Source: a virus (Duplodnaviria > Heunggongvirae > Uroviricota > Caudoviricetes). Taken from it: a DNA stretch of 43,689 nucleotides. This document shows positions 18,791-34,780 of the stretch, piece after piece. The position numbers and the translations under genes are program-made. The notes under the pieces were generated by a model. It was not told the DNA's origin, searched no databases, and worked only from the letters and a program-made list of their open reading frames with translations. Every line of letters starts with the position of its first letter. The first letter of the stretch is position 1. The DNA is taken from IMG/VR virus record IMGVR_UViG_3300045988_038444, positions 1 through 43,689 of that record, one strand, 5' to 3'.

Positions 18791-18791
18791 A

Positions 18792-18819: not shown

Positions 18820-18839
18820 AACCACTACCAACCACCATG

Positions 18840-20297: not shown

Positions 20298-20333
20298 TGT
20301 TCTAAGCCTCGTTTGATTGCAATCATTCGTAGT

Positions 20334-20759
20334 TTAATATATTTCTTCGTATTCGTAACTAAGTACGACGTTCGTTAAAAACCACGCGTTATCACGACCC
20401 TGATGACGAATATCAACACTCGTGTAAATTAACGGGCGGTCCTGCCAGACACCTTCAAATAATTTTGCAAGCCGATCCGCAATATCAATACTCAAAGTGT
20501 CCATGCCATACTGAGCAGGTGTGCGTACCTGTAAAAAAACGTTTCCTGTTCTTAAACGACGACGACAAACACCTTCCCCACCCAGCGTGGTTATTGTCCA
20601 CGGACCGGGATTGTGTGTCAGAATCAGACCGGGTTTTTCTGTAGTGTCATCAGGGAGTTGACCAGAAGCGATTGTAAATCTGTCAGGCGTAATTTCCACG
20701 GGGAGATTCGCCAGAACGCGATTATAAACAATTCCTGAAACATCTGAGAGTGTCATCAC
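20334..20759 (-). CDS. Neck / tail terminator-type protein (putative)
   Basis: 141-aa ORF between head-completion and major tail genes. Confidence 0.35.
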   Translation of the reverse strand: MMTLSDVSGIVYNRVLANLPVEITPDRFTIASGQLPDDTTEKPGLILTHNPGPWTITTLGGEGVCRRRLRTGNVFLQVRTPAQYGMDTLSIDIADRLAKLFEGVWQDRPLIYTSVDIRHQGRDNAWFLTNVVLSYEYEEIY

Positions 20760-21181
20760 TGATTAAACCTCACCATTATTCCGGCTTTTAATATAGCACG
20801 TTCGACAAACCCGGAAGGTGTCTGTGTACTGCTACCACCATTGAGAACCCCAATGTAAGGAACGTTGTTAGTAATATGCAGTTCCTGACCATTAACTTTA
20901 ATACTGCTGATAGTGACTGTATCCTGTTCGATACGTGCTTTACTGGCTTCAACATTACCTGTTGGTGTATCAGGACTATTAGCGGGTTGCCCCTGATCGA
21001 ACCACCAGTTGTTGCTTGCCCAGCCACTCAATATTGGTGTACCATCAGGAGGCTCACTTATGAGTATGTTACGTAGTGTTAAAACATATCTAATGACTTG
21101 ACGATCCGTAAAATCTTGTAAGTCGGCTTTTATGTCTTTAAACACTCCAGTAATACGATTTATATCATTGATTTTGCTAGT
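20756..21181 (-). CDS. Head-tail joining protein (putative)
   Basis: Track ORF 20756..21250; start moved to internal Met 21181 (MTSKINDINR...) because the 5' extension collides with the divergent plus gene. Confidence 0.35.
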   Translation of the reverse strand, partial: TSKINDINRITGVFKDIKADLQDFTDRQVIRYVLTLRNILISEPPDGTPILSGWASNNWWFDQGQPANSPDTPTGNVEASKARIEQDTVTISSIKVNGQELHITNNVPYIGVLNGGSSTQTPSGFVERAILKAGIMVRFNQ

Positions 21182-21206
21182 CATTGACAAACCTAAAGGT
21201 AGAAAA

Positions 21207-22103
21207 ATGGGCGGTAAAAGACTAACCAAAGAACAACTAGAGCATAACATAAAAGATATTTGTCAATCAAAAAATTACAAATTTATAAAATGGAAAGACG
21301 GGTTTAAAAACAAAGAATCACGAATTATTTTATCTTGTGTTACACACGGGGAATGGGACACTAAATGTTATCATTTTTTGAATGGTTCTGGTTGTCCGAT
21401 CTGTGGTGGAACACGAACCACAAAAGGGTTAAGAATTGCACAGATTAAAGACAGTTTAACAAATTCTAAATCAAAGTTTATTAAATTTAAAACTAATTTT
21501 CAAAATGGAAATTCTGTTTGTTTGCTGAGCTGTATTGATCATGGTGGATGGGAGACAACAGTCAATAGACTAATCTTTACATCTGTTGATTGCCCGTTGT
21601 GTATAACGAATAGACAGAAAACTAAACAAGAACGAGAAATTGAAATAACAAATAGATGTAAAGAAACAGGGTTGTTTTTTAATAAGATATTCGACGAACA
21701 TCCGACATGGAAATCTAAAATATCATTAAAGTGTTCAACGCATGGTGATTTTGTTACAACAATTAATTCTTTTCTTAGTAAACAAAAAGGTTGTCCAAAC
21801 TGTAGTAAAACAGGGTTTAAAGCTGGTAAGTATGCAACACTTTATGTCTTGCGGTCCACATGCGGTCGTTACGTTAAAATAGGTATCAGTAATTGTGTAG
21901 AGCAAAGAATTAATACACTTCGTAGAAAAACACCATTTGATTTTCAAGTAATAGAAAAATTGAATGGACACGGGGCAACCATTCGTTCACTTGAAAAAGA
22001 TTTTCATTCTCATTTTGAATCTGCAGGATTAACCGGGTTCGATGGTTGTACAGAGTGGTTAAAATGGAATCCAAATATAACCACTCTGATACGGATGTTA
22101 TAG
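21207..22103 (+). CDS. T5orf172-domain (GIY-YIG-like) protein with zinc-ribbon-like repeats, second copy
   Basis: Start taken at ATG 21207 (MGGKRLTKEQ...). Repeats with HG...GCPxC modules and C-terminal TLYVL...VKIGIS...TEWLKW. Confidence 0.65.
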   Translation: MGGKRLTKEQLEHNIKDICQSKNYKFIKWKDGFKNKESRIILSCVTHGEWDTKCYHFLNGSGCPICGGTRTTKGLRIAQIKDSLTNSKSKFIKFKTNFQNGNSVCLLSCIDHGGWETTVNRLIFTSVDCPLCITNRQKTKQEREIEITNRCKETGLFFNKIFDEHPTWKSKISLKCSTHGDFVTTINSFLSKQKGCPNCSKTGFKAGKYATLYVLRSTCGRYVKIGISNCVEQRINTLRRKTPFDFQVIEKLNGHGATIRSLEKDFHSHFESAGLTGFDGCTEWLKWNPNITTLIRML

Positions 22104-22481
22104 TTATACCGCTCCAACAGGATGAATAAATGCCATATCATCCCCTAACAATCGTGGGTTTTGACGATCAAGAAGGCGATATTCTTTACCACGTTCATCA
22201 ACCACAACATCACCCCGATCAGGAACAAATCGTGGTTCAAAACTCTGACTATCCATAATTACCATCGTTGTGGTTATTCTGGTCATAGTAGTCGGATCCC
22301 ACTTTTCTAATGGGTAAATATAACCACGACACGTATGCGATTCAGTAACGGTTGTACCCGGTAATGTAGGATTAGACGGGTTGGGAACTGTTATCACACG
22401 TTTTACCGTCAAATCCTCACCTACTTCAGCAAGTGCACGAGTAACACCTTTCAGGACACTTTGACGTTTGTCTGCCATCAC
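22104..22481 (-). CDS. Head-tail connector / head completion protein (putative)
   Basis: 125-aa ORF, position. Confidence 0.35.
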   Translation of the reverse strand: MMADKRQSVLKGVTRALAEVGEDLTVKRVITVPNPSNPTLPGTTVTESHTCRGYIYPLEKWDPTTMTRITTTMVIMDSQSFEPRFVPDRGDVVVDERGKEYRLLDRQNPRLLGDDMAFIHPVGAV

Positions 22482-22888
22482 CGTTCACCCTCGTTAAGTG
22501 CACGACCACCGCTTTCAAGTGTTACAGGTGGGTTGTCGAACTGACCACGTTGAATAGCAGGTTGCATACCAGCGCCAGTTAATGTAGCTCCACCAACACC
22601 CATAAAACTACCTAACAAACCGCCACCTGAATCAGCGCCAGTATTAATACGTAAAATAAAATCTTTTTTAAGTTTATTCCAGGCGTCTGCTGACTGACTA
22701 CTGCTGAGTGAGATCGGACCTACTTTAATGTCAGTATCGTTGCTGGCAATAGACGCCATATAATCACAGAGAGCGACGCAAATACTGAGAGGATTTGTAT
22801 AACCGTTGTCAATGTACCACTGAATTTGTTCATCAGTAACATCAGGGACACTGATCAAATAACGAATACCTTCAACTGTAATAGCCAT
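22478..22888 (-). CDS. Structural protein (putative head-tail adaptor)
   Basis: Track ORF runs to 23062 but the extension reads through a terminator hairpin; start taken at ATG 22888 (MAITVEG) after aggtga. Confidence 0.4.
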   Translation of the reverse strand: MAITVEGIRYLISVPDVTDEQIQWYIDNGYTNPLSICVALCDYMASIASNDTDIKVGPISLSSSQSADAWNKLKKDFILRINTGADSGGGLLGSFMGVGGATLTGAGMQPAIQRGQFDNPPVTLESGGRALNEGER

Positions 22889-22927
22889 GTGATCACCTGT
22901 GAGAAATGTTTTCGTTATATTAGCACG

Positions 22928-22953
22928 AAAAAAAGCCGTCTTAAACAGACGGC
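22928..22953 (-). terminator. Rho-independent terminator (gccgtc-tgtttaa-gacggc plus T7 on the minus strand)
   Basis: Plus strand shows A7 then gccgtcttaaacagacggc; lies about 40 nt upstream of gene start 22888. Confidence 0.55.
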
Positions 22954-23161
22954 AAATGGCTCTGGGTGATAATGAGGGTTTTACATAACTGGTCATCCAC
23001 ACCTGACGTCCCAACATACCCCTATGCGTGACACGTGAATAACCAGTTATGTAAAACGACACGCAGTTCAGGATGTTTCACAACATGCTTTACCCACGAT
23101 TTGCGGCTTTCCCGCCAGCAAGATAAGGATCACCTCCTTATCAGCGAGTGTTTGGGTTGTG

Positions 23162-23205
23162 GCGGTTGGAATCGAACCAACTCCCATCGGTGCGATTCCA
23201 ACCGC
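23162..23205 (-). other. tRNA-like structured element: 13-bp perfect inverted repeat, T-loop-like GTTGG-TTCGATT-CCAAC on the minus strand
   Basis: gcggttggaatcg (23162-23174) and cgattccaaccgc (23193-23205); minus strand carries a consensus T-arm followed by CGCCACA, but no canonical anticodon arm could be folded by eye. Confidence 0.25.
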
Positions 23206-23459
23206 AGTACGCGCAGCGGTCCGCTACATGACTAGTATTTTCACGGTCGCCTATCTGCTAGCTCGCCATTGAGCTTCACCACAACGGAAAGAGCACTGGA
23301 ACTTGGGCTGAGTATTACCGCATGTCTTTCGACTTCGAACCAAGGCTGACATTACCCAATGCTCTTACCTGTTATGTGCCGGTTACGTTTATCCGGCGTC
23401 TTTCGACCGATTAAGTGATAGTGTCTGCTATGCAGTTCTGTCACTGACTTAACAATAGG

Positions 23460-23813
23460 TCAAGAATAGTTATATGTCAAGCCTTGTGATTCACACCATT
23501 TAGCAGCGGCACTTTTACTACTAAACGATTCTGAATTCATCGGCATACCCATAACATAAACATTATAGGTTTTTGGCGCATCACGTCGGATTTCAGCCGC
23601 AGTGGTTGATGCCGATTCTTCGGTTGCTACAGTCACTGGTTCTTCAACGGTCGCAGTAGCTGGTTCAATGTGGCGCATACGCACAAGGGCGTTTAAAACA
23701 GCCGGGGTAGCTTTTGATGTTGATACTTTATCGCCAGCGGACATCTGTTTACCGTTCCACAGCATCGGACGGGTGAAAACATATTTCAGTGACGGATCAT
23801 ATGAATTACGCAT
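23460..23813 (-). CDS. Hypothetical protein downstream of the major capsid gene
   Basis: Track ORF 23460..23867; start moved to ATG 23813 (MRNSYDP) after gagg because the extension encodes the terminator hairpin. Confidence 0.4.
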   Translation of the reverse strand: MRNSYDPSLKYVFTRPMLWNGKQMSAGDKVSTSKATPAVLNALVRMRHIEPATATVEEPVTVATEESASTTAAEIRRDAPKTYNVYVMGMPMNSESFSSKSAAAKWCESQGLTYNYS

Positions 23814-23828
23814 GATTTTAACCTCATG

Positions 23829-23856
23829 AAAAAAGGGGCAGCATAAGCCACCCCTT
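23829..23856 (-). terminator. Rho-independent terminator after the major capsid gene
   Basis: Minus strand GGGGTGGC-TTAT-GCTGCCCC (two G.U pairs) followed by T6. Confidence 0.5.
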
Positions 23857-23875
23857 AATGATATCACAGTTGTTA

Positions 23876-24895
23876 TTAAACCGCGTCGTAGAACAGAACG
23901 CCCAGGTCAGGTGCAACCATCTGAACATCAATGGCAAATTCCGCTTCAACGAAATTACCACGACGGCCTTCGACACCCGGATAGGTACGGATAGACGGAC
24001 CGTTGTTAACGCCCAGACCGATGAACTCGTTCCACACGAAGCCCGCAGCCGCAACAGGTTTCATATTGCCAACAGTCGGTTCAACATAGTTGAGCATCAG
24101 CACACCAGTTTTAGCAAACCGGAAGTCTGACAGCGGATTGCCGTTACTGTCTTCAACGCCATCAGCAGCCATGTTGACCACAGACTGCATGATTTCCAGT
24201 TCGTCAACTTCCAGCAGTGCAGCCAGTGCCTGTTTAGTCACGATCCCAGGGTTCTGAGTGGTAGAACCACCGTTAATACGGTCAATAACAGCCGGGCTAC
24301 GGGTCAGTGCGTCATACACGTCCAGCGTCATCAGTGCTTTGTTCCAGCGACGACCACCGGATGCCAGAGAGAACGCAACACGACGTGACAGGATATCACC
24401 AATCGGATCGGCATTCGCATTAGACCATTTCAGGAATCCACCCGTGGACGGAGACGAGCCTTTACCCTGGAAATCAAGACCCCATTTACCAGCGGTCAGG
24501 AATTTTTCAGCAAAATCCACTTCTTTGTTGATCAGCAACGCATCTGTGGTTACTGCTGACGCTTCCATATCCAGTTGCTGACCGTTTTGAACGTTTGCAC
24601 GTTTTTTGTCAGAAATAAAGATACGGATCGCATCGTCATCAACGGTGTAACCCTGGTTTTTGGTTTTGTAACCAATAGTATTAGCAACACCATCTTCGGC
24701 ACGTTTGGAGTTAACCGGACGACCGAAATAACCTTTCGGGTAAGTCAGGAATTTACCAGCAGCCTGGTTAACAGGAACTACCGGGAAATAACGAGTACCG
24801 ACAAACAGTGACGTATCCTGCCAGTAACTTACAGAAAAGTTAGACAGGAATGTATCTGGTGCGCCAACGTCGCGAAAATTCTGTTTGTAACTCAT
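23876..24895 (-). CDS. Major capsid protein (putative)
   Basis: 339-aa ORF between scaffold-like gene and a terminator, typical position; no motif-level confirmation. Confidence 0.6.
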   Translation of the reverse strand: MSYKQNFRDVGAPDTFLSNFSVSYWQDTSLFVGTRYFPVVPVNQAAGKFLTYPKGYFGRPVNSKRAEDGVANTIGYKTKNQGYTVDDDAIRIFISDKKRANVQNGQQLDMEASAVTTDALLINKEVDFAEKFLTAGKWGLDFQGKGSSPSTGGFLKWSNANADPIGDILSRRVAFSLASGGRRWNKALMTLDVYDALTRSPAVIDRINGGSTTQNPGIVTKQALAALLEVDELEIMQSVVNMAADGVEDSNGNPLSDFRFAKTGVLMLNYVEPTVGNMKPVAAAGFVWNEFIGLGVNNGPSIRTYPGVEGRRGNFVEAEFAIDVQMVAPDLGVLFYDAV

Positions 24896-24898
24896 CGG

Positions 24899-25309
24899 TT
24901 ATGCTCCTTTAGAATACGGTGCAATAAGTAATGCGGTAACTACCTGGTCTTCTTCAGTGGCTGCAGTTTGAGAAATAGCCACGACCAGTTGTGTATCAGT
25001 AGCGGTCTGGAATCGTCCGTCAGCACCAACAGCAAGCTCAACACCTGTGTCGAACGTTGCAGCAGCTTTTACTGGTACGAATTTTTCTTTTTCGTTTACC
25101 AGGTCGAAGAATACACCAGCAGTGGCATCATCAACAGCTACACCGTCGATACGACCGTCAGCCGTTGGGAATTTGTATTTAGGTACACACTGGTTAGTGT
25201 CACCTAAACTGGTATCCAGAACAAGACCAACACCTGCCGAAATAGCCACGGATGCAACGGCACGGGTCGGGCGCTCATAGTTCCAGTAGATTTTGCTGTT
25301 CTTAGCCAT
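24899..25309 (-). CDS. Head decoration or accessory capsid protein (putative)
   Basis: 136-aa ORF immediately upstream of the major capsid gene. Confidence 0.35.
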   Translation of the reverse strand: MAKNSKIYWNYERPTRAVASVAISAGVGLVLDTSLGDTNQCVPKYKFPTADGRIDGVAVDDATAGVFFDLVNEKEKFVPVKAAATFDTGVELAVGADGRFQTATDTQLVVAISQTAATEEDQVVTALLIAPYSKGA

Positions 25310-26568
25310 TATTCGTCACCTCGCATCGCTTCGATTGCTTCCTGACCTTTTTTAGTTGCAGAAACTGCCTGCATAGCCTGGGTGCGTGTTTTACCCGGAT
25401 TTGCTTTCAGCCATTCGTTGATCATGTCTTCCAGTGCACTGGAACCTTTACCACTACCGTTCGGCGCTGCTGGCTCTTTACGTGCTTTCCAGAGTTCGTC
25501 GGCCTGTTTGAGTTTTTCAACCAGAAAGTTACGATCCGCTTCCGGTAAACGCTCAAGAGTCATGACCATTTGGGTTTTCTGTACCATTTCACCCGGAATG
25601 TGTGCGAAATCAGCGTTCACGGTTTTTTCAGCTTTCGCCAGTGCCGCTTCAGTCTGTGCTTTGCGAAGTTGTTCGTCCTGAGATTTCAGAACATCATACA
25701 TCGGACCAGCTACAGACTTCTGAACAACCTGACCAGCAATCGTGGTAAACGATTCATCAGCCTGTTTAGCCATCGTCACGAGGGCATCGCGAGCAGTGGC
25801 ATCCATTTTACGGAATGCTTCCTGATCAGATTCAGGCAGAGAATTATGATACGCCTTATGGACGTCGTTCATCTCAGCCAGGGCTTTGTATTTTTCCAGT
25901 TCGGACATTTCGATTTCCTCTGCCGTTTTTAAAACTTGAGGTACTTCCTGGTCCGGGTGTAATTTTTTCCACGCGGATCGGACTTTGTTTTTCACACCTG
26001 CTAAATCGGCTTCAGGGATTTCAACTTTGTTACCGCGATAACCCGGACCTAATGCAGCAAGTGCAGCGCCTACAATACGCGCATCAGGTTCACCGCCAGG
26101 GGTAGCTGTTAAACGAAGTTTCCAGGTTGAAGGTTTTTCTGGATCTGGCACATATGCATAATCAGATGCCGGGAAAACTTCACCGTCTTCAGTTTTACCA
26201 CCTTTCGCTTTATTCATCGAAATACCAGCGGCCTGTTGCAACGTTATAATATATTCATTTACCGCGTCACGCAATGCTGCTTGTTTATCGGTAACAGAAT
26301 CATCTTTTGCAATATCCTCTGCTGCTTCATAAAGCGCATCGTTCAACATCCACGAATTAGAGAGGAAATCACGAACTTTCTGTTCAAGTTCTTTTTCAGC
26401 CAGTGCCGCGCTGAATGTTGACTTTAAAAGAACAACAGCAGGCGGTTCTGAATGTGATTTAAGAACAAGAGCATTTGCTCCCTCGTGAGCAGGTTTTGTC
26501 ACGCCGGACAGAAAACCGATCTTCATCGATTTAGCGCGGCGTAAATGATTAGTACCATCTGTACGCAT
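25309..26568 (-). CDS. Capsid scaffolding-like protein (putative)
   Basis: 419 aa with a long charged alpha-helical C-terminal half; ATG overlaps the upstream stop (taATG). Confidence 0.35.
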   Translation of the reverse strand: MRTDGTNHLRRAKSMKIGFLSGVTKPAHEGANALVLKSHSEPPAVVLLKSTFSAALAEKELEQKVRDFLSNSWMLNDALYEAAEDIAKDDSVTDKQAALRDAVNEYIITLQQAAGISMNKAKGGKTEDGEVFPASDYAYVPDPEKPSTWKLRLTATPGGEPDARIVGAALAALGPGYRGNKVEIPEADLAGVKNKVRSAWKKLHPDQEVPQVLKTAEEIEMSELEKYKALAEMNDVHKAYHNSLPESDQEAFRKMDATARDALVTMAKQADESFTTIAGQVVQKSVAGPMYDVLKSQDEQLRKAQTEAALAKAEKTVNADFAHIPGEMVQKTQMVMTLERLPEADRNFLVEKLKQADELWKARKEPAAPNGSGKGSSALEDMINEWLKANPGKTRTQAMQAVSATKKGQEAIEAMRGDE

Positions 26569-26978
26569 TATTCCACATCCTCATAATATGCAGTTCCACC
26601 GATACTATATCCCGTATATTCACCAGTCTGAAACTTTTTCAAAACTTCGTCATCAGTTATCAACGTACCAACAATGACGCCTGTCTGATCCAGTTTATCA
26701 ACCAGTCCAAAACTTGCTGCAATGTCTTCGGTCATCGGGAACGCAAACACAACTTTCCCAACAGGTTGTTGATTATGCATATTATCCATGATGCGCTGAT
26801 CAGAATTCATGAAGTCCAACCATGCTTTCAGAGTGACATCCTCGGGAAATTGCTCGTTGTCCGTGTCTGTGTAAATTTCTAACTGACCTGTCTCCTGATT
26901 ACGTTTTTTACAGATACTACCCCAACCGAATACCATACGTAGTGAGTTGTCAACCTTATTAACTTTTACGTTAATCAC
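26568..26978 (-). CDS. Hypothetical head-module protein
   Basis: 136-aa ORF in the head gene block. Confidence 0.35.
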   Translation of the reverse strand: MINVKVNKVDNSLRMVFGWGSICKKRNQETGQLEIYTDTDNEQFPEDVTLKAWLDFMNSDQRIMDNMHNQQPVGKVVFAFPMTEDIAASFGLVDKLDQTGVIVGTLITDDEVLKKFQTGEYTGYSIGGTAYYEDVE

Positions 26979-27385
26979 GGGGATTGTCCTCGTATTGTTT
27001 CAACATGACTAAATTCTAACATTTCGGATGAATAATTGCACTGGTGATACACGCTGTTTACAACGTTACCGAATATCTCAGAAAGATTCTTGATCGGTTC
27101 AACAGCAGTCGTTACTGGTTCAACAGCAGTCGTTACTGGTTCAACAGTAGTCGTTACCGGTTCAACAGTAGTCGTTACCGGTTCAACAGCAGTCGTTACT
27201 GGTTCAACAGCGTCCAGATGTTCAGCGACAACCTGGAAAAACACTGTGTTAGTTTCACGGTCAATAATAACCACTGTGCTGGAACTATCTTCAACAATGC
27301 TGAATGAGTAGTCGTAACGATCACCGTGAATTTTACGGGCGCGACGAATGAATTCGTCTGTAGCAACTCTGATGTTCGGATCCAT
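26975..27385 (-). CDS. Repeat protein: N-terminal KYDYS module followed by six VEPVTT(A/T) heptad repeats
   Basis: Start taken at ATG 27385 (MDPNIRVATDEFIRRARKIHGDRYDYS...); the N-terminal module matches the repeat unit of the T5orf172 genes. Confidence 0.5.
   Translation of the reverse strand: MDPNIRVATDEFIRRARKIHGDRYDYSFSIVEDSSSTVVIIDRETNTVFFQVVAEHLDAVEPVTTAVEPVTTTVEPVTTTVEPVTTAVEPVTTAVEPIKNLSEIFGNVVNSVYHQCNYSSEMLEFSHVETIRGQSP
27105..27218 (-). repeat. Coding tandem repeat, 21-bp unit (ttcaacagcagtcgttactgg on the plus strand), about 5.5 copies
   Basis: Direct repeats visible at 27105-27218; encode VEPVTTA heptads on the minus strand. Confidence 0.85.
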
Positions 27386-27411
27386 ACATTCAACCCTTCT
27401 TGTTCTCTTAA

Positions 27412-27456
27412 CCACAGGGTAGTTGTGTCGGTGTAATCCGTCAAGAATTATTTTGC
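27412..27456 (-). promoter_or_regulatory. Inverted copy of the conserved early promoter, reading leftward
   Basis: Plus gtaatccgtcaagaattatttt is the reverse complement of aaaataattcttgacggattac; downstream leader nearly matches the plus copy at 27742. Confidence 0.6.
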
Positions 27457-27526
27457 GTATAGATTCATGGGAAGTATGCGACCCCCTATACCTTTTAAAC
27501 CTCTCCTACTTGCAGCAACTTTTACT

Positions 27527-27640
27527 ACTTATACTACTCTTCTATTTATCTATGTTTATTATGTTTTCTATAAAAAGATAACAAAAAGAATAAGATAGAG
27601 AGGGGTTGGTTAAAAAGTAAACATGACGAAATATATGAAT
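27527..27640. repeat. Conserved ~110-bp noncoding element, copy A (core 27567-27632)
   Basis: Core tctataaaaagataacaaaaagaataagatagagaggggttggttaaaaagtaaacatgacgaaat recurs at 42643-42708 with 4 mismatches in 66 nt. Confidence 0.8.
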
Positions 27641-27652
27641 CTATGATCTACT

Positions 27653-27733
27653 AATACACGTTCTGTATTAGCCGCAACTCAAAATCATGAAACCTATGTA
27701 GAACTATGTGCAGTTAGTACACGTTCTGTATTA
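27653..27733. promoter_or_regulatory. Two operator-like inverted repeats aataca-cgttc-tgtatt, 63 bp apart
   Basis: aatacacgttctgtatt at 27653-27669 and gtacacgttctgtatta at 27716-27733, just upstream of the promoter at 27742. Confidence 0.4.
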
Positions 27734-27741
27734 ACTGCATC

Positions 27742-27786
27742 TTTAAAATAATTCTTGACGGATTACACCGACGCAACTATCTTGTG
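27742..27786 (+). promoter_or_regulatory. Conserved early promoter copy (-35 TTGACG 27755-27760, -10 tatctt 27778-27783)
   Basis: ctttaaaataattcttgacggattacaccgacgcaactatctt. Confidence 0.7.
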
Positions 27787-27814
27787 GTTAACAGGAAGAA
27801 AAAGGAGACATGCA

Positions 27815-27883
27815 ATGATTTACTACATACTGGCTTTCATGATTTTCGCAGCACCTGTGATCGTAGGAATAGTAAGAGGTTAA
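27815..27883 (+). CDS. Possible 22-aa hydrophobic leader peptide (MIYYILAFMIFAAPVIVGIVRG)
   Basis: aggaga 6 nt upstream of ATG 27815; lies between promoter and first long gene. Confidence 0.25.
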   Translation: MIYYILAFMIFAAPVIVGIVRG

Positions 27884-27887
27884 CAGT

Positions 27888-28436
27888 ATGAACGAACTGA
27901 CAAACACCAACGTTGATTTCACAATGTCCAGCCTGGATTTCTTGAAGAATGTTATCAACCCAGCACGTGTGGCTGAAGGTGAGGAAGTCTGGGTCCGTCA
28001 TAATGATTTCTTAGCCAGAGTTAAGGATGAATTAGAAGGTCAAGTTTTGGTTACGAAACTTTTCACACCCAAACTTCAGGGAAGAGGTGGCAATAGAAAA
28101 CCGTTTGAAGTGGTCGATCTAAACATGGATCAAATGCTTCTTGTGGGTATGCGTGAATCTAAAGCCGTTCGCAAAGCTGTATTAGCCAAATTAAAGAAGT
28201 TGAATAACCACCAACACCAACCGTTACTACAGTTACAGTGTGAAATCGGAGAATTGCACAAACAGAATGACGAACTACGTAACGAAATTGAAGTCGATCG
28301 TAAGACCTATGATTTGTTGTTGGTAGACATGAAAAAGTTATGGGAAGAGAAAGAAAATCTGCAAAAAGAATTAACTGCTTTGCGTAAACAGGATGATGTT
28401 CGTAAACGTGCGCTTAAACTTTTACTTGGGTTATAA
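27888..28436 (+). CDS. Hypothetical early protein with C-terminal coiled-coil
   Basis: 182-aa ORF; agagg RBS; heptad-like charged C-terminus. Confidence 0.5.
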   Translation: MNELTNTNVDFTMSSLDFLKNVINPARVAEGEEVWVRHNDFLARVKDELEGQVLVTKLFTPKLQGRGGNRKPFEVVDLNMDQMLLVGMRESKAVRKAVLAKLKKLNNHQHQPLLQLQCEIGELHKQNDELRNEIEVDRKTYDLLLVDMKKLWEEKENLQKELTALRKQDDVRKRALKLLLGL

Positions 28437-28439
28437 CCT

Positions 28440-28601
28440 ATGGGTAAAAAGAAACGGAAACAGCCTGTCAAGAAAGAACCATATAACCCACGGCATGTTA
28501 ATGAGTTATGGGCTAAAGATGTGGACGATTTTACTGAATCTGACTGGAGTAAAGTCACAAGGTTGATCGTTAAATTAAGACGACTATCGAGGTACGCGTA
28601 A
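28440..28601 (+). CDS. Small basic protein (53 aa)
   Basis: Below track cutoff; ATG 28440 three nt after the upstream stop; its stop overlaps the next ATG (taATG). Confidence 0.35.
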   Translation: MGKKKRKQPVKKEPYNPRHVNELWAKDVDDFTESDWSKVTRLIVKLRRLSRYA

Positions 28602-28876
28602 TGTGTTACTGTATGAAAAAAGTTGGTGACGAACTTCAAAAACGTCTGATGGAAAAAGTACCAGTAGGTTCGGAAGTCAGCACTAACCTGTTTGATAAAG
28701 TTGGCTGGGATAATCAGTGTTTCGGTCTGACGTCTGGTAAAACTTACGTTATGTTGAAATATCGTCTTGCATACCGTGCTAAAAAGAAAAACGGTGAACT
28801 GGCGAAGAACTTCACGCGCCTGGAAACCAACATCAAAATGTCTTATTGTCCATTCTGCGGGGAGAAACAGGAGTAA
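28601..28876 (+). CDS. Hypothetical protein with C-terminal CPFCG zinc-ribbon-like motif
   Basis: 91-aa ORF; Cys pairs at both ends. Confidence 0.45.
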   Translation: MCYCMKKVGDELQKRLMEKVPVGSEVSTNLFDKVGWDNQCFGLTSGKTYVMLKYRLAYRAKKKNGELAKNFTRLETNIKMSYCPFCGEKQE

Positions 28877-29114
28877 TCGCTATGGGAATGAAACAAATAT
28901 GGGATGGTAAAACCTTCCTTCTGTTGGTTGTGAAGTATTGATCCATCTGGCAAGCATTAACAAGTGGGTGGCACGAACTGTTCAGGGTTATGAAATATGG
29001 CCTTCTGTTTATGAAAATGATACGGCACATCACAGGGTAAACATAAAATTTGAAGATAATGTTCGTCTGTTATGTGATGTGCGACCTCTTGACTGGCGTG
29101 AACCTGATTAACTT

Positions 29115-29176
29115 GGTTCGATGGCTGTACTGAGTGGTTAAAATGGAATCCAAATATAACCACTCTAATACGTATA
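29115..29176 (+). pseudogene. Remnant of the 3' end of a T5orf172-type gene
   Basis: ggttcgatggctgtactgagtggttaaaatggaatccaaatataaccactctaatacg is near-identical to 22038-22095 (end of gene 21207..22103); encodes FDGCTEWLKWNPNITTLIR but has an in-frame TGA at 29105-29107 just upstream. Confidence 0.6.
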
Positions 29177-29177
29177 A

Positions 29178-30137
29178 TCACGGGATAACATTTATATCTT
29201 GAGGGAGAGAATAAGCAACCCGGCAACGACAATTAATCACGTTCGCAGCACTACCGTTAGGATCACGAGGAAACATAAGTGGTCCTAACGGCGTTGAAAA
29301 CGGTCTGTCCATTGGTATCCAGCCGTTCGTTTCACCTGTAGAAATATGCGCATCACGTGTCCGACCATCTTTTCTATATAACCAGCGCTTCAGCAATTCA
29401 TTACTAATAGCCCCGGTAATCTGTCCCTGACGTATTGCCTGATCCTGACCAACTGATACAGCACGAAGTGATTCAGTACGCGCTATTGTCTCTGTACGCT
29501 GTTTTACATAACGCAAGCGTGTCTGTTCGATTATCTGGTCAATCTTCACCTGTGATAGTTTCCCGGCACTTACAGCGTTCTTCGCACTGTCTGTAACAGT
29601 GGTCAGACTGTTCACATAACCTGCTTCACCTTTTTCCAGTGCTGATCGTAGACGTTGAACCGTCATTTCCTGCCGTGTGGTTAACCCTATTGATGATCGA
29701 AAATCACGGGCTATCTGACGCGGATTTCGTCCGGTTACCATACCCTGGTTAACTGCAATCTGAACAGCTTTGACTGTTTCGTCACTGACTTCACGGATCA
29801 GTTGTCCGACATAGTTGTTGATATATGTGCTGACCTGTGGGGTGACCAGACTGAACACAACCGGACCTGTTACAGCCGCTTTCGGTAGAACCTGAACGAC
29901 TACACGACCTGATTCAGCGATCGCATCTTCAATAACCGGGCGCAACTGTGCACTAAGTTCATCAGGAAGTGTTTCAAGAATGGGGAGTAACCCGGCAATA
30001 CCTTGGGTTTCAATAATGTATTCCAGGTTGGCTAACGACTCACTACGACGCACGTTTTCCCACACAACATCAAGTGCTTCGCGAATGCGAGCGTCATACT
30101 TGTCTGAAATATCCGGGTATGGGTCTTTAGTAGCCAT
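29178..30137 (-). CDS. Head morphogenesis protein (Mu F / SPP1 gp7-like minor head protein)
   Basis: 319 aa; C-terminal DGRTRDAH ... NCRC pattern typical of the Phage_Mu_F family. Confidence 0.65.
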   Translation of the reverse strand: MATKDPYPDISDKYDARIREALDVVWENVRRSESLANLEYIIETQGIAGLLPILETLPDELSAQLRPVIEDAIAESGRVVVQVLPKAAVTGPVVFSLVTPQVSTYINNYVGQLIREVSDETVKAVQIAVNQGMVTGRNPRQIARDFRSSIGLTTRQEMTVQRLRSALEKGEAGYVNSLTTVTDSAKNAVSAGKLSQVKIDQIIEQTRLRYVKQRTETIARTESLRAVSVGQDQAIRQGQITGAISNELLKRWLYRKDGRTRDAHISTGETNGWIPMDRPFSTPLGPLMFPRDPNGSAANVINCRCRVAYSLPQDINVIP

Positions 30138-30165
30138 AAAAAAGCCTCAGTTAACACACTGAGGC
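30138..30165 (-). terminator. Hairpin plus T6 immediately upstream of the head morphogenesis start codon
   Basis: Minus strand GCCTCAG-tgtgttaa-CTGAGGC-TTTTTT followed directly by ATG 30137. Confidence 0.45.
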
Positions 30166-30310
30166 CGATTATATCACGTGTTACGGACGTGGAAGATTAC
30201 GTTTTTCAGTTCCCTGAATGCGGTTCTTAACTTCGCGGATCTGTTCTTCCAGAAACTGTAACGCTTTTTGTGCTCGTTCGTAGTCTATTTCAAGTTCACG
30301 TAATAATTTT

Positions 30311-30505
30311 TCATCTTTTGTCACGATTATAACGTCCTTTAAAACCGGGTCTGACCATCAACTTACCATTCACCACCGCGTGAAATTCACCATTGGTGTC
30401 ATCCATATATTTATAAACTGTCGCTTTGTTACACCCAATCCTCCTAGCAAGTTCTGTCACGTTGCCATAAACGGTGGGTAGTAATTCAGAAATAGTTTGA
30501 ACCAT
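30311..30505 (-). CDS. Small helix-turn-helix DNA-binding protein (putative regulator)
   Basis: VTELARRIGCNKATVYKYM resembles an HTH. Confidence 0.4.
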   Translation of the reverse strand: MVQTISELLPTVYGNVTELARRIGCNKATVYKYMDDTNGEFHAVVNGKLMVRPGFKGRYNRDKR

Positions 30506-30687
30506 TATAATAGTTCCCCTCTGTCACGTGCCACACGTTCGATTAACCGAATCGTGGCAGACCGTTTATCACCGTCATAAGGTTCTTCATAACGAAGATC
30601 GTCTGTGAAAACGATTTGTTCACGGTCACAGTGAATAACAATAATGTCGTATTTGACCAGAAGGTCGAATGCTTGTTCACCGTTCAT
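30505..30687 (-). CDS. Hypothetical protein
   Basis: 60-aa ORF, overlapping stops and starts. Confidence 0.35.
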   Translation of the reverse strand: MNGEQAFDLLVKYDIIVIHCDREQIVFTDDLRYEEPYDGDKRSATIRLIERVARDRGELL

Positions 30688-31312
30688 CGTTAAGATATTC
30701 CTCTGCGTGTAATGCTGCGTAACTGATCAGATCTTCCAGACTGTCACGATGTGGTGTTTCAGTGTCGGAATAGAAACGAACCGCTTTTAACAACATCAGG
30801 AACAACCATCCTTCACCCGGTGTTAAATCGCGCCCGGTAATTGTGTTAAACGCAGCAACGATTTTAGCTGACGAACGTTCCTGACCAGACGTGTCATACT
30901 GCTTACCACGTTCTGTCAGTAGCTGTTCAGCCTGTTTCAGTAAATCAGACGCTGTTGATGGTTGTTGAACAGGTGTGAATAGATGCGCCAGGTGTAAGTC
31001 TGCTAATGACTGTTGTTTATATTTTGTTATTTCATCATTAGTACGAATAGAATAACCATGTATGGCTAACTTGTCGTCATTAACACGAGTAACCATTACA
31101 TCCCGTGGTGAGACTGCAGGACGTTTTTCAACGATTTCCCAGAAATTTTCACTGCTCATTGTAAATTCAGTACCTGTTTCAATTCTTATCATGCGTGCAG
31201 ATACACGGGGTTCTTCTGACCAGTGATAGTCAACACTGAATTTATTAATTTTTGGTTTAACAACACAAGTAGCCCAGTCCGGTGCTTCACTCCAGTTAAT
31301 GTTATGCATCAT
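30677..31312 (-). CDS. Hypothetical protein
   Basis: Track ORF to 31369 would overlap the promoter; start taken at Met 31312 (MMHNINW). Confidence 0.4.
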   Translation of the reverse strand: MMHNINWSEAPDWATCVVKPKINKFSVDYHWSEEPRVSARMIRIETGTEFTMSSENFWEIVEKRPAVSPRDVMVTRVNDDKLAIHGYSIRTNDEITKYKQQSLADLHLAHLFTPVQQPSTASDLLKQAEQLLTERGKQYDTSGQERSSAKIVAAFNTITGRDLTPGEGWLFLMLLKAVRFYSDTETPHRDSLEDLISYAALHAEEYLNDER

Positions 31313-31342
31313 TCGTTCCTCATTGGTTAACGTTGACAGAAG

Positions 31343-31388
31343 TTTAAAATAATTCTTGACACATTGCAAGCAGTAACACTAACATTTG
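31343..31388 (+). promoter_or_regulatory. Conserved early promoter copy (-35 TTGACA 31356-31361)
   Basis: gtttaaaataattcttgacacattgcaagcagtaacactaacat. Confidence 0.65.
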
Positions 31389-31419
31389 TCACGAACGAAA
31401 CACACTGAGGAATCAAACA

Positions 31420-31923
31420 ATGACTAACCTGTATATCAAAAAACTAACACCCCACGCTGAACTTCCAACACGTGTAACACCAGACAGCGCCGGGTTAGAC
31501 GTTCGTGCTTGCCTATGGGAAGAATCGGTAACTATATTCACAGAATCAGGCGCTAAAGTGGAACGTCCGGTTGTTGCAGGAACAATCGCATTATGGCCCG
31601 GCGACCGCGCTATGATCCCCACTGGTCTGAAAATGTCAGTTGATAACGGATATTGCATTAAATTTTATCCACGTTCCGGCATGAGTCTTAAACACGGTTT
31701 GTCACTGATCAACTGTGTGGGTATCGGTGATCGTGATTACAAAGAAGAATACTACGTTACGCTGACTAACCACGGACAGAAATTACAGACTATCGCAGAC
31801 GGTGAACGCGTTTGCCAGCTTATGGTTGAACGTGTCGAACCTGTTAATCTGGTTGAAGTGGAAGAATTACCAGATGTTGATAGTCAGCGTAATGGCGGGT
31901 TTGGATCAACAGGACGGGTATGA
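31420..31923 (+). CDS. dut: dUTP diphosphatase (dUTPase)
   Basis: Motifs AGLDV, IPTGL, RSG, GVIDxDY-like (GIGDRDYKEEY), GERVCQL, and C-terminal RNGGFGSTG. Confidence 0.85.
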   Translation: MTNLYIKKLTPHAELPTRVTPDSAGLDVRACLWEESVTIFTESGAKVERPVVAGTIALWPGDRAMIPTGLKMSVDNGYCIKFYPRSGMSLKHGLSLINCVGIGDRDYKEEYYVTLTNHGQKLQTIADGERVCQLMVERVEPVNLVEVEELPDVDSQRNGGFGSTGRV

Positions 31924-32249
31924 TGAACAATCGTGATTTATTAGTCAACGCAGCACGGGCTGCTGAAATCCAGGGTAAATATTACGTCGCGTACGACGAA
32001 CGTTATATAAACGAAGGTATTGATATAGGTAATGGTCGCCTGTGGAACCCTCTTACACGTAATGAGGATGCTTTCAGTCTGATGGTTAACATGTACATGG
32101 ATCTGGATGTTCGTGACAACGAAGTGACGGTTAATAACCCTGACACTGGCGTTAGTTATAAGCAACCAGTTAGCCACGGAGAAGATCGTGAAAAAGCAAC
32201 GCGTTTAGCGATCGTCAACTGTGCAGCAATTGTGGGGTCGTATTTATGA
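31920..32249 (+). CDS. Hypothetical protein
   Basis: 109-aa ORF, ATGA overlap with dut. Confidence 0.45.
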   Translation: MMNNRDLLVNAARAAEIQGKYYVAYDERYINEGIDIGNGRLWNPLTRNEDAFSLMVNMYMDLDVRDNEVTVNNPDTGVSYKQPVSHGEDREKATRLAIVNCAAIVGSYL

Positions 32250-32494
32250 CGATATTTAAAAACTCAATGGGCGATACTGTCGCGTATCTACCGAAAGTCA
32301 TTATTGCAGATCCATCCTGTGTTGATTACCCACACTGCAAGCAATCTGAAGCGACCTACAACGACCTGTGCGCTGATATTATGCGTGGTTGTGACATCGG
32401 TATTGAACGACTTCAGAAACTGCGGGAGGAATACGAAAAACGGTCTGTTCAGGCAGCAATGGGTTTACCGCCTGTATACGATAATTTAAAATAA
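32246..32494 (+). CDS. Hypothetical protein
   Basis: 82-aa ORF whose stop lies inside the next promoter copy. Confidence 0.4.
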   Translation: MTIFKNSMGDTVAYLPKVIIADPSCVDYPHCKQSEATYNDLCADIMRGCDIGIERLQKLREEYEKRSVQAAMGLPPVYDNLK

Positions 32495-32530
32495 TTCTTG
32501 ACGGATTACACAAGGACGTGTAACCTACAA
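32485..32530 (+). promoter_or_regulatory. Conserved early promoter copy (-35 TTGACG 32498-32503, -10 taacct)
   Basis: atttaaaataattcttgacggattacacaaggacgtgtaacct. Confidence 0.7.
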
Positions 32531-32556
32531 ACATCAAAACAAAGGAGGACACAATC

Positions 32557-32901
32557 ATGTTATTCGCTATTTTATGGGTTCTTTTCTCTCTGATTATCGC
32601 GGGTGTTGCCAAACAAACGGGTCGCAACCCTGGTGCATGGTTCTTTATCGCATTTCTCACAAGTCCTGTGATCGGTGGTCTGATTCTGTTAATCGCATAT
32701 CTGTTTAACGGTAAGGTCGTAAGGGAACAACCGAAAGTGGTAACCACGGGGATGTTTAGTAACTACCTTGCAGCCTATAACTATGTTAATGAACATTACA
32801 CCATTGATACTGACTACCGGGCAGAAGCAGCCAGTGACCTGTTTAAGTATGCTACCTGTCGCGAGGACTGTGATAAACTGATCGCGAAGTACGTTAACTG
32901 A
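32557..32901 (+). CDS. Small inner-membrane protein (two predicted TMDs)
   Basis: aaaggagg RBS; hydrophobic segments ILWVLFSLIIAGV and WFFIAFLTSPVIGGLILLIAYL. Confidence 0.5.
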   Translation: MLFAILWVLFSLIIAGVAKQTGRNPGAWFFIAFLTSPVIGGLILLIAYLFNGKVVREQPKVVTTGMFSNYLAAYNYVNEHYTIDTDYRAEAASDLFKYATCREDCDKLIAKYVN

Positions 32902-32916
32902 CAGGAGAAAACTTAA

Positions 32917-33249
32917 ATGCGTTTTGAAATTCTTGAGCTTGTTAAATATGACAAGACTGCTGCTGAAATTCTGGTTGATGCAGTTGCTGACAACGAAGTG
33001 AAATTTAAACTACTTAACAAGGTCTGGAAATACATTGTAACCACGACTATTGTTGAGCAAGCATCACAGTTTAAAGAAGTTGTTGCTGATATGTACGCGT
33101 TCACTGGCGATGATGAGGTTAAACTACAACTGCTTGATAAAACGCTGGAACGTGCGATCAACAACAGTTATCCGTTACAGACTCGTATTCAGACTGCGGT
33201 TGATGAAGCGAGTAAATTACTGTCAATCGTGCAGCCTGAAACTAAGTAA
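32917..33249 (+). CDS. Hypothetical protein
   Basis: 110-aa ORF; aggaga RBS. Confidence 0.45.
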   Translation: MRFEILELVKYDKTAAEILVDAVADNEVKFKLLNKVWKYIVTTTIVEQASQFKEVVADMYAFTGDDEVKLQLLDKTLERAINNSYPLQTRIQTAVDEASKLLSIVQPETK

Positions 33250-33256
33250 AAATTAA

Positions 33257-33279
33257 GGGACCAGAAACGGTCCCTTTTT
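33257..33279. terminator. Bidirectional rho-independent terminator (gggacc-agaaac-ggtccc, T-runs both sides)
   Basis: Between convergent genes 32917..33249 (+) and portal (-). Confidence 0.65.
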
Positions 33280-33282
33280 AAT

Positions 33283-34638: not shown

Positions 34639-34707
34639 GTTCTACAGGCTCCATACGGTTTACGGTTCTTAACGTATGTTATATCAGTGATGGTTTTTTT
34701 GCACGGT

Positions 34708-34752
34708 GTTAAAATAATTCTTGACGAATTGCAAACGTGCGATTATGCTTTA
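34708..34752 (+). promoter_or_regulatory. Conserved early promoter copy (-35 TTGACG 34721-34726, -10 tatgct)
   Basis: gttaaaataattcttgacgaattgcaaacgtgcgattatgct. Confidence 0.7.
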
Positions 34753-34780
34753 GTCATCAAATGAACGAAGGGTGATAACT

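What the first reader, a model, noticed from the sequence alone, without database searches (positions are those of the whole stretch)
26975..27385. Third Pro-rich heptad-repeat protein, transcribed from the inverted early promoter
This gene encodes six VEPVTT(A/T) repeats, similar in composition to the EPPVSRV and PVAAPTPAAA repeats of the gene at the window ends. Repeat number is likely unstable, and three such arrays in one small genome is unusual.
Basis: seen in the sequence. Interest (0 to 1): 0.4.

Follow-up and report, generated by a model that had tools for sequence, protein, structure and literature searches.

The report
Decayed homing-endonuclease gene with variable repeat
The small repeat-containing gene is the nuclease-less remnant of a selfish homing-endonuclease gene wedged in front of a phage's head-protease gene, and its 7-residue repeat is a length-variable linker (1 to 10 copies between isolates): an ordinary stage in the decay of such elements.

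Summary
A minus-strand ORF (26975-27385, 136 aa) carries a 21-nt tandem array (27096-27211): five full VEPVTT[A/T] units plus a partial one. An inverted copy of a promoter-like element sits just upstream; that element occurs nine more times on the + strand.

The window is about 75% of a 9NA-like (Nonanavirus/Sashavirus) E. coli siphophage genome. The gene is a relic of a free-standing T5orf172 (GIY-YIG clan) homing endonuclease.
- Residues 4-60 are one DUF723/CapR-type DNA-binding module with all four zinc ligands lost.
- A metagenomic relative has a full-length 239-aa allele at the same locus, with the same N-terminus, 1.5 repeat units, an intact Zn module, a T5orf172 domain and the same C-terminal tail.
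- The window allele lacks that second module and the nuclease core.
- 9NA, Sasha and Carvaje lack the gene altogether.

Copy number runs from 1 to 10 across more than 100 independent assemblies. Constraint is relaxed: omega is about 0.23 (N-terminus) and 0.76 (C-terminus), against 0.04 for the adjacent protease gene.

The protein is not Pro-rich. The two arrays at the window ends lie in two different genes. The window is not a whole small genome.

Verdict: new member of a known kind, low interest.

The parts
26975..27385 (-). CDS, 136 aa: nuclease-less relic of a T5orf172/DUF723 homing-endonuclease gene. Its TGA stop overlaps the GTG start of the downstream XkdF-like protease gene (GTGA at 26975-26978).
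   Evidence: ORF and sequence. The same locus holds a full-length 239-aa allele in L007. The ORF is intact in 15 of 15 short-form loci found by a DNA pattern.
27212..27385 (-). Codons 1-58: one degenerate DUF723/CapR-type module (helix FIRRARKIHGDRYDYS, then three strands). All four predicted Zn ligands (C, H, C, C) are replaced.
   Evidence: Exhaustive HMMER search: 13,555 hits, all through residues ~4-60, in proteins with 5-14 such modules that Pfam calls DUF723/DUF4379/CapR. BLASTP to the window paralogue gives E = 5e-11. Module alignment shows the ligand columns lost. AF2 gives a helix plus 3 strands at pLDDT ~60. Omega is ~0.23.
27096..27211 (-). 21-nt tandem array, 5.5 copies, encoding VEPVTT[A/T]. 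It starts where the second zinc knuckle (GCxxC) of a normal module would be and acts as a length-variable linker.
   Evidence: TRF; found only here in the window; 1-10 units in relatives; pLDDT < 50.
26975..27095 (-). C-terminal tail IKNLSEIFGNVVNSVYHQCNYSSEMLEFSHVETIRGQSP. The last ~20 residues match the C-terminal end of the full-length T5orf172 allele. The last codons contain the CGAGGA Shine-Dalgarno of the protease gene (26987-26992).
   Evidence: Protein and DNA alignment to P0154/L007. Omega is ~0.76, near neutral. CGAGGA is also the SD upstream of the protease gene in 9NA, Sasha and Carvaje.
27394..27454 (-). Inverted copy of the repeated promoter-like element: A/T-rich AAAATAATTC, -35 TTGACG (27439-27444), 17-nt spacer, -10 TACCCT (27416-27421), SD GAAGGG (27394-27399).
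   Evidence: (I1, D1/D5). Conserved in all 16 related loci. Function as a promoter is inferred, not shown.
27745..27805 (+). Partner arm of the inverted repeat: promoter-like element of the divergent + strand gene block (TTGACG, 17 nt, TATCTT).
26568..26978 (-). Downstream XkdF-like prohead protease gene, first gene of the head operon (protease, 419 aa, 136 aa, major capsid). In relatives without the relic it directly follows the intergenic region.
   Evidence: Pfam Peptidase_S78_2, 7.8e-8. Synteny in PDP46, PJ16, Bas82, AVIO78A, Sasha, 9NA and Carvaje.

Best explanation
The gene is the degenerating remnant of a free-standing homing-endonuclease gene (HEG) of the T5orf172 type. Such genes combine a GIY-YIG-clan nuclease with N-terminal DUF723/CapR/DUF4379 zinc-finger DNA-binding modules.

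How it arose (shown by comparison):
- The HEG inserted into the 5' leader of the head-protease (XkdF-like) gene of a 9NA-like coliphage, between the leader sequence TACCC(G)TGGTTAA and the protease Shine-Dalgarno CGAGGA.
- In this lineage a copy of the phage's repeated TTGACG-type promoter element lies in front of it.
- An internal deletion then removed the second, intact zinc module and the nuclease core.

What is left: one module without zinc ligands, a short linker that has expanded by slippage or unequal recombination of a 21-nt unit, and about 40 C-terminal residues whose 3' end overlaps the protease gene's ribosome-binding site and start codon.

What it does (inferred):
- It cannot cut DNA. 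It probably cannot bind DNA the way CapR-type modules do.
- It is dispensable for head assembly.
- It persists mainly because it now forms the promoter-proximal leader ORF of the head operon and because it disrupts the site the HEG would re-invade.
- The repeat is a near-neutral, always in-frame, length-variable linker.
For: (1) Module homology. Exhaustive HMMER with the 1-unit orthologue gives 13,555 hits, all through residues 4-60, in proteins carrying 5-14 tandem modules that Pfam names DUF723/DUF4379/CapR, often with T5orf172. BLASTP to the window's own T5orf172 gene (16399-17310) gives E = 5e-11.
(2) Full-length allele at the same locus. P0154 (239 aa) lies directly upstream of the same 136/419/136/339-aa head genes. 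Its first 68 residues and 417 nt of upstream and 5' DNA are 97% identical to the window. It continues with an intact Zn module and T5orf172 (Pfam 5.9e-13) and ends KYSSEMLDYISNRYRGQSP, against NYSSEMLEFSHVETIRGQSP in the target. L007 positions 418-871 are replaced by 142 nt in the window.
(3) Its central part is only 79% identical in DNA to the window paralogue, so it is an old paralogue and not a recent conversion.
(4) Presence/absence. 9NA, Sasha and Carvaje have no gene here; the protease gene directly follows the intergenic region.
(5) No T5orf172 hit in the target at E <= 10. All four Zn ligand columns are lost. In CapR the four cysteines are required for DNA binding (PMC8096241).
(6) Relaxed constraint. 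Omega is 0.23 (N-terminus) and 0.76 (C-terminus), against 0.04 for the adjacent protease gene (Fisher p = 0.01 and 1e-4).
(7) Repeat count runs 1-10 with nearly invariant flanks. Residues 54-136 have pLDDT < 50.
(8) The same genome holds two intact T5orf172 HEGs, one of them absent from Bas82, and another 70-nt HEG relic.
(9) T5orf172 HEGs are reported to cluster next to capsid and other essential genes (PMC10448857).
Against: - The N-terminal module is not evolving neutrally: 9 nonsynonymous against 11 synonymous changes, binomial p = 0.001 against a crude neutral expectation.
- The ORF is intact in all 15 short-form loci sampled by DNA pattern. Some protein-level or mRNA-level function may therefore remain.
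- Homology of the middle 20 residues (IKNLSEIFGNVVNSVYHQCN) to the T5orf172 C-terminal half is only collinear and suggestive, not significant against shuffles.
- The direction of change (deletion from a full-length allele, or rebuilding of one) is inferred from one full-length allele.
- Promoter activity, timing and translational coupling are untested.
- The AF2 model is of low confidence overall (mean pLDDT 43.6), so 'disordered' is a weak statement.
Confidence: 0.78

Rival explanations
1. Domesticated HEG fragment. The Zn-less DUF723/CapR-like module plus flexible linker is a functional small protein. It could be a regulator of the divergent promoter region or head operon, as PLE CapR represses the ICP1 capsid operon, or a decoy or immunity factor against related homing endonucleases. 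Linker length might tune its activity.
For: N-terminal omega ~0.23, significantly below a crude neutral expectation. The ORF is intact in 15 of 15 DNA-sampled loci, and the short form is by far the commonest allele. It sits at the head of the capsid operon, beside operator-like repeats. CapR is a precedent for a nuclease-less HEG DNA-binding domain acting on a capsid operon (PMC8096241).
Against: All four Zn ligands are gone, and in CapR the quadruple Cys mutant no longer binds DNA. The same degenerate module already exists in the full-length allele, where an intact second module is available for binding. The C-terminal part is near neutral (omega 0.76). The gene is absent from 9NA, Sasha and Carvaje, which have the same head genes and intergenic layout. 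A linker that varies from 1 to 10 units argues against a tuned spacing. AF2 confidence is low.
Confidence: 0.15
2. A structural or assembly protein of the head module with a Pro-rich repeat domain, related in function to the other two repeat-bearing proteins.
For: It is the first gene of the head operon and is translationally linked to the protease gene. Three coding arrays of linker-like composition lie in one genome.
Against: It is absent from relatives with 90-93% identical protease and the same head genes. It is homologous to HEG DNA-binding modules, not to any virion protein. It has only 1 Pro per 7 residues. The other arrays lie in a Gp2.5-like SSB and an unnamed 251-aa protein (Bas82_0094) of unrelated sequence. 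The PHROG 'holin' and Pfam collagen/adhesin hits fall only on the repeat and are below threshold.
Confidence: 0.03
3. The 21-bp array works at the DNA level, as iterons or binding sites (for example for a HEG module, replication or packaging protein), and the coding capacity is incidental.
For: A 21-bp period is two helical turns. The array lies 200-300 bp from a regulatory region containing other direct repeats.
Against: Copy number ranges from 1 to 10, and the whole gene is missing in related phages. The unit occurs nowhere else in the window. The reading frame through the array is continuous with conserved flanks.
Confidence: 0.03

Closest known systems
Free-standing T5orf172 homing endonucleases with repeated DUF723/CapR/DUF4379 zinc-finger modules. 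Examples: ICP1 Gp53/121/130/165/174, T5 Orf141, and in this window the genes 16399-17310 and 21132-22103.
   Same: The N-terminal module is homologous. The C-terminal tail matches the end of a T5orf172 allele at the same locus. The gene is free-standing, next to capsid genes, and shows presence/absence polymorphism between related phages, as described for this family (PMC10448857).
   Different: There is no T5orf172 nuclease domain, only one module, and that module has no zinc ligands. A 21-nt tandem array replaces the second zinc knuckle and linker.
CapR of the Vibrio cholerae satellite PLE: a nuclease-less DNA-binding protein derived from T5orf172 HEG modules that represses the ICP1 capsid operon (PMC8096241).
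   Same: It is a small protein consisting of a HEG-type DNA-binding module without the nuclease, and it is associated with a capsid morphogenesis operon.
   Different: CapR keeps its CxxC...CxC cysteines and needs them to bind DNA; the target has none. CapR is encoded by a satellite and acts in trans on the phage; the target sits in cis in the phage itself. No DNA binding is shown here. The Pfam CapR model does not hit the target.
Degeneration stage of the homing-endonuclease life cycle: invasion, fixation, decay, loss (Goddard and Burt model; my own knowledge, not checked in a paper here).
   Same: Three states coexist among close relatives: empty site (9NA, Sasha, Carvaje), full-length HEG (L007) and internally deleted, relaxed-constraint relic (window and more than 100 others).
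   Different: The relic has become the leader ORF of an essential operon, with its stop overlapping the protease start. This may slow its loss.
Length-variable coding tandem repeats (VNTR-like linkers) in phage and bacterial proteins, such as Pro/Ala/Thr-rich inter-domain linkers (general knowledge).
   Same: The unit is a multiple of 3 nt, the composition is low-complexity V/T/P/A/E, the region is predicted unstructured, and copy number differs between isolates. The same genome has two more such arrays, in a Gp2.5-like SSB and in the unnamed 251-aa protein Bas82_0094, which also differ in copy number from Bas82.
   Different: Here the linker joins a decayed domain to a vestigial tail, so length variation is probably inconsequential rather than adaptive.

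Membership tests
T5orf172 homing endonucleases (GIY-YIG clan) | T5orf172 nuclease domain (Pfam PF10544) | tested here: not met
   No hit at E <= 10 in the target or its orthologues. The full-length allele P0154 hits at 5.9e-13 and the window paralogue at 4.4e-13. About 130 residues, including the LYVL...KIGIT core, are deleted.
T5orf172 homing endonucleases (GIY-YIG clan) | N-terminal DUF723/CapR/DUF4379-type DNA-binding module(s) | tested here: met
   Residues 4-60 match thousands of such modules (Pfam naming of hits). BLASTP gives 5e-11 to the window paralogue. The Pfam HMMs themselves do not reach E <= 10 on the target, although PF05265 is precomputed for about 20 of 98 orthologues.
T5orf172 homing endonucleases (GIY-YIG clan) | Zinc ligands of the module (C...H...C..C in DUF723; CxxC...CxC in CapR) | tested here: not met
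   Alignment with eight canonical modules shows C replaced by D42, the HG histidine replaced within TNTVF, and the GCxxC knuckle replaced by AVEPVTT.
T5orf172 homing endonucleases (GIY-YIG clan) | Free-standing gene with presence/absence polymorphism at a fixed site among related genomes | tested here: met
   Empty site in 9NA, Sasha and Carvaje; full-length allele in L007; relic in the window, 6 GenBank phages and 8 metagenomic or viral contigs.
T5orf172 homing endonucleases (GIY-YIG clan) | Site-specific cleavage and homing | not testable with these tools
   This needs co-infection or in vitro cleavage assays. Absence of the nuclease domain predicts no activity.
CapR-like domesticated HEG DNA-binding proteins | Sequence-specific DNA binding that represses a capsid operon | not testable with these tools
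   Only the position (head of the capsid operon) is analogous. The loss of the cysteines that CapR requires argues against the same mechanism.
CapR-like domesticated HEG DNA-binding proteins | Match to the CapR homology domain (PF21817) | tested here: not met
   No hit in the target. The window gene 21132-22103 hits at 3.3e-18.
Coding VNTR / variable linker | Tandem unit that is a multiple of 3 nt, with copy number varying between isolates and flanks conserved | tested here: met
   21-nt unit; 1-10 units; protein lengths 108-171 aa in steps of 7; flanks nearly invariant.

The most novel reading that the evidence does not exclude
The relic is not junk but a domesticated, zinc-independent CapR-like module kept under selection (N-terminal omega ~0.2). 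It would act in cis-proximity on the divergent promoter region or on incoming related homing endonucleases. This would make it a phage-encoded counterpart of the satellite repressor CapR, sitting at the head of its own capsid operon, with a hypervariable linker.
Probability: 0.1. Interest if true: 0.5.

Novelty: new member of a known kind. Interest (0 to 1): 0.2.

Why it matters
The result gives an evolutionary origin and a better name to a 'hypothetical protein' (called 'DUF723 family protein' in one record) present in the six GenBank 9NA-like coliphages checked here and in many metagenomic contigs. It should be annotated as a truncated T5orf172-type homing-endonuclease remnant.

It also provides a clean natural series at one site: empty site, intact HEG and internally deleted relic. 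That series could be used to study HEG decay and how a selfish gene becomes fixed as the leader of an essential operon.

The 21-nt array is a usable strain-typing marker for these phages. Otherwise the finding is ordinary: HEG decay and coding VNTR linkers are both well known.

Tried and rejected
- Direct Pfam, PHROGs and NCBIfam scans of the target gave only sub-threshold hits on the repeat (DUF3439, pAdhesive_17, Collagen_mid, phrog_526 'holin' at E = 0.0095). I rejected these as low-complexity matches.
- PDB sequence searches with the protein and with a module profile found nothing usable.
- The AlphaFold2 model built on the shallow orthologue alignment had mean pLDDT 43.6, too poor for a fold search, so none was run.
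- I tested whether the middle 20 residues are a recognisable T5orf172 remnant. The alignment is collinear but not better than shuffles at either DNA or protein level.
- I tested whether the full-length allele is a recent conversion from the window paralogue. It is only 79% identical, so this was rejected.
- I considered the GTG at 27415 as the start. It lies inside the promoter element, and the ATG at 27385 has the SD, so it was rejected.
- I considered the + strand ORFs across the array (27044-27307, 27090-27311). They are by-products of the repeat.
- The J Virol 2019 paper on 9NA-like phages (PMC6819911) is not held, so published promoter or transcription data could not be checked.
- Scans of viral and metagenome contigs with a 27-mer gave only 8 extra loci.

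Full report
**What is there**

On the minus strand an ORF runs 26975-27385 from an ATG (136 aa). The ORF listing extends it to a GTG at 27415, which lies inside the promoter element. Tandem Repeats Finder reports a 21-nt array at 27096-27211 with 5.5 copies, 95% matches and score 204. The unit occurs nowhere else in the window, and no matches are expected from shuffles.

In the gene's frame the array reads VEPVTTA VEPVTTT VEPVTTT VEPVTTA VEPVTTA VEP. That is five full units and a partial one, Val/Thr-rich, with one Pro per unit. The TGA stop overlaps the GTG start of the next gene (GTGA), which encodes an XkdF-like prohead protease (Pfam Peptidase_S78_2, 7.8e-8). The rest of the head operon follows: a 419-aa protein, a 136-aa scaffold-like protein and the major capsid protein.

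**Genome context**

The window is 92-97% identical to E. coli phages of the 9NA group: PJ16, PDP46, Bas82 (KarinMuster), AVIO78A, Sashavirus 536P12 and BDX09P1. These genomes are 56-58 kb. Aligned to Bas82, the window covers Bas82 52402..58508 plus 1..38187, so about 14 kb of the genome is missing.

The two window ends therefore fall in two different genes. One is a Gp2.5-like ssDNA-binding protein with PVAAPTPAAA repeats. The other is an unnamed 251-aa protein (Bas82_0094) with EPPV[S/A]RV repeats. There are indeed three coding arrays, but they lie in three unrelated genes of a larger genome, and the contig evidently broke at the two longer arrays.

**Promoter element**

The 15-mer AAAATAATTCTTGAC occurs ten times exactly. 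Nine copies are on the + strand, in front of + strand gene blocks. One is on the minus strand at 27440-27454 (families D1/D5). All copies have TTGAC(G/A), a 17-nt spacer and a TAnnnT-like hexamer.

The minus copy reads TTGACG, 17 nt, TACCCT. The -10 is followed by 30 nt that include GAAGGG 8 nt before the ATG. It forms a 61-nt, 85% inverted repeat with the + strand copy at 27745-27805 (I1) and is conserved in all 16 related loci examined. Activity and 'early' timing are inferred only.

**Identity of the protein**

- Direct family scans give nothing above threshold.
- An exhaustive HMMER search with the one-unit orthologue P0097 finds 13,555 proteins at E <= 1e-3. All match through residues ~4-60, which recur 5-14 times in tandem in the best hits.
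- Pfam names those modules DUF723, DUF4379 (treble-clef zinc finger) and CapR homology domain. Many of the proteins end in a T5orf172 domain.
- This is the architecture described for T5orf172 homing endonucleases of phages (PMC10448857; PMC8096241).
- The window itself has two intact genes of this kind, 16399-17310 and 21132-22103. The target's module matches the first at E = 5e-11.
- Aligned with eight canonical modules, the target keeps the FI..A...HG..YDYS helix and strand but has lost all four zinc ligands. The GCxxC knuckle is replaced by the first repeat unit.

**The decisive relative**

P0154 (239 aa) begins with the same 68 residues, including VEPITTAVEPV. It continues with an intact zinc module and a T5orf172 domain (5.9e-13). 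It ends KYSSEMLDYISNRYRGQSP, against the target's NYSSEMLEFSHVETIRGQSP.

It is encoded at exactly the same locus, directly upstream of 136-, 419-, 136- and 339-aa head genes. At DNA level the promoter and first 417 nt are 97% identical to the window. L007 positions 418-871 (second module plus nuclease core) correspond to only 142 nt in the window, made of extra repeat units and 58 nt of diverged sequence. The 3' end plus protease gene is 86% identical.

The central part of P0154 is only 79% identical in DNA to the window paralogue, so it is an old resident and not a recent conversion. A collinear but statistically weak match (PxK.LS.[LI]F ... V.N.V[FY]H[EQ].N ... YSSEML) suggests that the tail is what remains of the T5orf172 C-terminal half after further small deletions.

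**Empty sites**

In 9NA, Sasha and Carvaje the protease gene is 90-93% identical in protein but no gene precedes it. The intergenic region runs ...TG(A)TAT(T/C)AT..TACCCGTGGTTAAC..CGAGGA..ATG. In the window the same TACCC(T)GTGGTTAA precedes the relic, and CGAGGA lies in its last codons. The HEG therefore sits inside the protease gene's leader. In this clade the extended -10-like sequence is replaced by the TTGACG element, and the protease starts with GTG.

Empty site, intact HEG and relic thus coexist among relatives. This is the expected picture for a homing element in decay (general knowledge of the HEG life cycle).

**Repeat instability and selection**

- Ninety-eight protein clusters of close orthologues (77-100% identity) have lengths of 108-171 aa. 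Apart from a few proteins called from upstream start codons, these are steps of 7 residues, corresponding to 1-10 units, with nearly invariant flanks.
- Fifteen short-form loci retrieved by a DNA 27-mer or as BLAST hits all have an intact ORF ending in the GTGA overlap.
- Because the unit is 21 nt, frame preservation by itself says nothing about selection.
- Counting changes across these 15 loci gives omega ~0.23 for codons 1-59 (11 synonymous, 9 nonsynonymous; p = 0.001 against a crude neutral expectation).
- Omega is ~0.76 for the last 41 codons, which is compatible with neutrality, and ~0.04 for the protease gene.
- Constraint is therefore 6- to 20-fold relaxed relative to the neighbour but not absent in the N-terminal module.
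- AlphaFold2 on the shallow alignment gives a helix plus three strands at pLDDT ~60 for residues 1-54 and pLDDT < 50 for 54-136. This is consistent with, but not proof of, an unstructured linker and tail.

**Mechanism**

Shown: the gene lacks the nuclease domain and the zinc ligands, it is dispensable in related phages, and its repeat changes length freely.

Inferred:
- It neither cleaves DNA nor binds it in the CapR manner. CapR's four cysteines are required for binding.
- It survives as the promoter-proximal leader ORF of the head operon and as a disrupted, and hence HEG-immune, target site.
- The array grows and shrinks by slippage or unequal recombination.

The main rival is domestication as a small regulator or decoy, by analogy with CapR. 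The N-terminal constraint and the dominance of the short allele keep it alive, and I give it about 0.15.

**Comparison with what is known, and novelty**

T5orf172 HEGs next to capsid genes, their modular zinc-finger arrays and their domestication are all described (PMC10448857, PMC8096241). HEG decay and coding VNTR linkers are textbook. This specific relic appears unannotated beyond 'hypothetical' or 'DUF723 family protein'. It is a new member of a known kind, of low general interest. It is useful for annotation, as a natural empty/intact/relic series, and as a typing marker.

Noticed in passing
window 1-105 and 43500-43689: Both contig ends fall inside tandem arrays of two different genes: a Gp2.5-like SSB (Bas82_0067, PVAAPTPAAA, 9 units in Bas82) and an unnamed 251-aa protein (Bas82_0094, EPPV[S/A]RV, 6.6 units here against about 4 in Bas82). 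About 14.2 kb of the genome (helicase, primase, ParB and others) is missing between them. The assembly probably broke at the arrays.
   Followed up: partly
window 16149, 18095, 27745, 31346, 32488, 34711, 38130, 39492, 41340 (+) and 27440 (-): Ten exact copies of AAAATAATTCTTGAC. Each is followed by a 17-nt spacer and a TAnnnT-like hexamer. Each + strand copy precedes a block of + strand, mostly small, genes interspersed among minus-strand virion genes. This is a phage-wide promoter family with an A/T-rich upstream part.
   Followed up: partly
window 21132-22103 (+) and 16399-17310 (+): Two intact T5orf172 homing-endonuclease genes with CapR/DUF723 modules. The first is absent from Bas82 (window 21170-22110 has no counterpart), so it is a presence/absence polymorphism between neck and tail genes. 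The second corresponds to Bas82_0047, next to the tape-measure gene.
   Followed up: partly
window 29106-29175: A 70-nt stretch is 91% identical to the 3' end of the HEG at 22027-22096 and encodes the GFDG.TEW motif. It lies in no ORF, just past the stop of the head-morphogenesis gene. It is a second, more advanced HEG relic (D7/D8, 32).
   Followed up: no
window 27538-27747 and 42614-42900: A 100-nt A/T-rich segment is duplicated (27538-27637 and 42614-42713, 90%). Next to it are two operator-like direct repeats containing the palindrome TA(A/G)TACACGTTCTGTATTA (27632-27684, 27695-27747). 9NA, Sasha and Carvaje have two phage-specific ~20-nt repeats at the same position. 42700-42900 holds many TACACAACGTGCACTA-type repeats upstream of the Bas82_0094-like gene.
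   Followed up: no
window 43500-43637: The 21-bp EPPVSRV array lies inside the gene that follows the iteron-like repeat field. Whether it doubles as protein-binding iterons inside the coding sequence, as in the lambda O gene origin, was not examined.
   Followed up: no
window 26568-26978 (-): The XkdF-like prohead protease is named 'DNA methyltransferase' in the RefSeq or GenBank records of 9NA, Sasha and Bas82. It matches only the C-terminal third of phrog_1530 and does match Pfam Peptidase_S78_2, so the name is probably a transferred mis-annotation.
   Followed up: partly
window 26400-27600 versus L007 1-1500: Nucleotide identity to the contig carrying the full-length HEG steps from 97% upstream of the deletion to 86% downstream. 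This fits the reported tendency of nuclease genes to mark boundaries of genetic exchange (PMC10448857).
   Followed up: no
L008-L010 positions ~2950-3000, against window 27386-27460: In 9NA, Sasha and Carvaje the protease gene is preceded by TGATATTAT, TGATATCAT or TGATACTAT (extended -10-like) and starts with ATG. In the E. coli clade this is replaced by the TTGACG-type element plus the HEG relic, and the protease starts with GTG. The + strand partner promoter also carries GTGGTTAAC, which in the other phages occurs only on the protease side. This suggests an inverted duplication or conversion of about 61 nt.
   Followed up: partly
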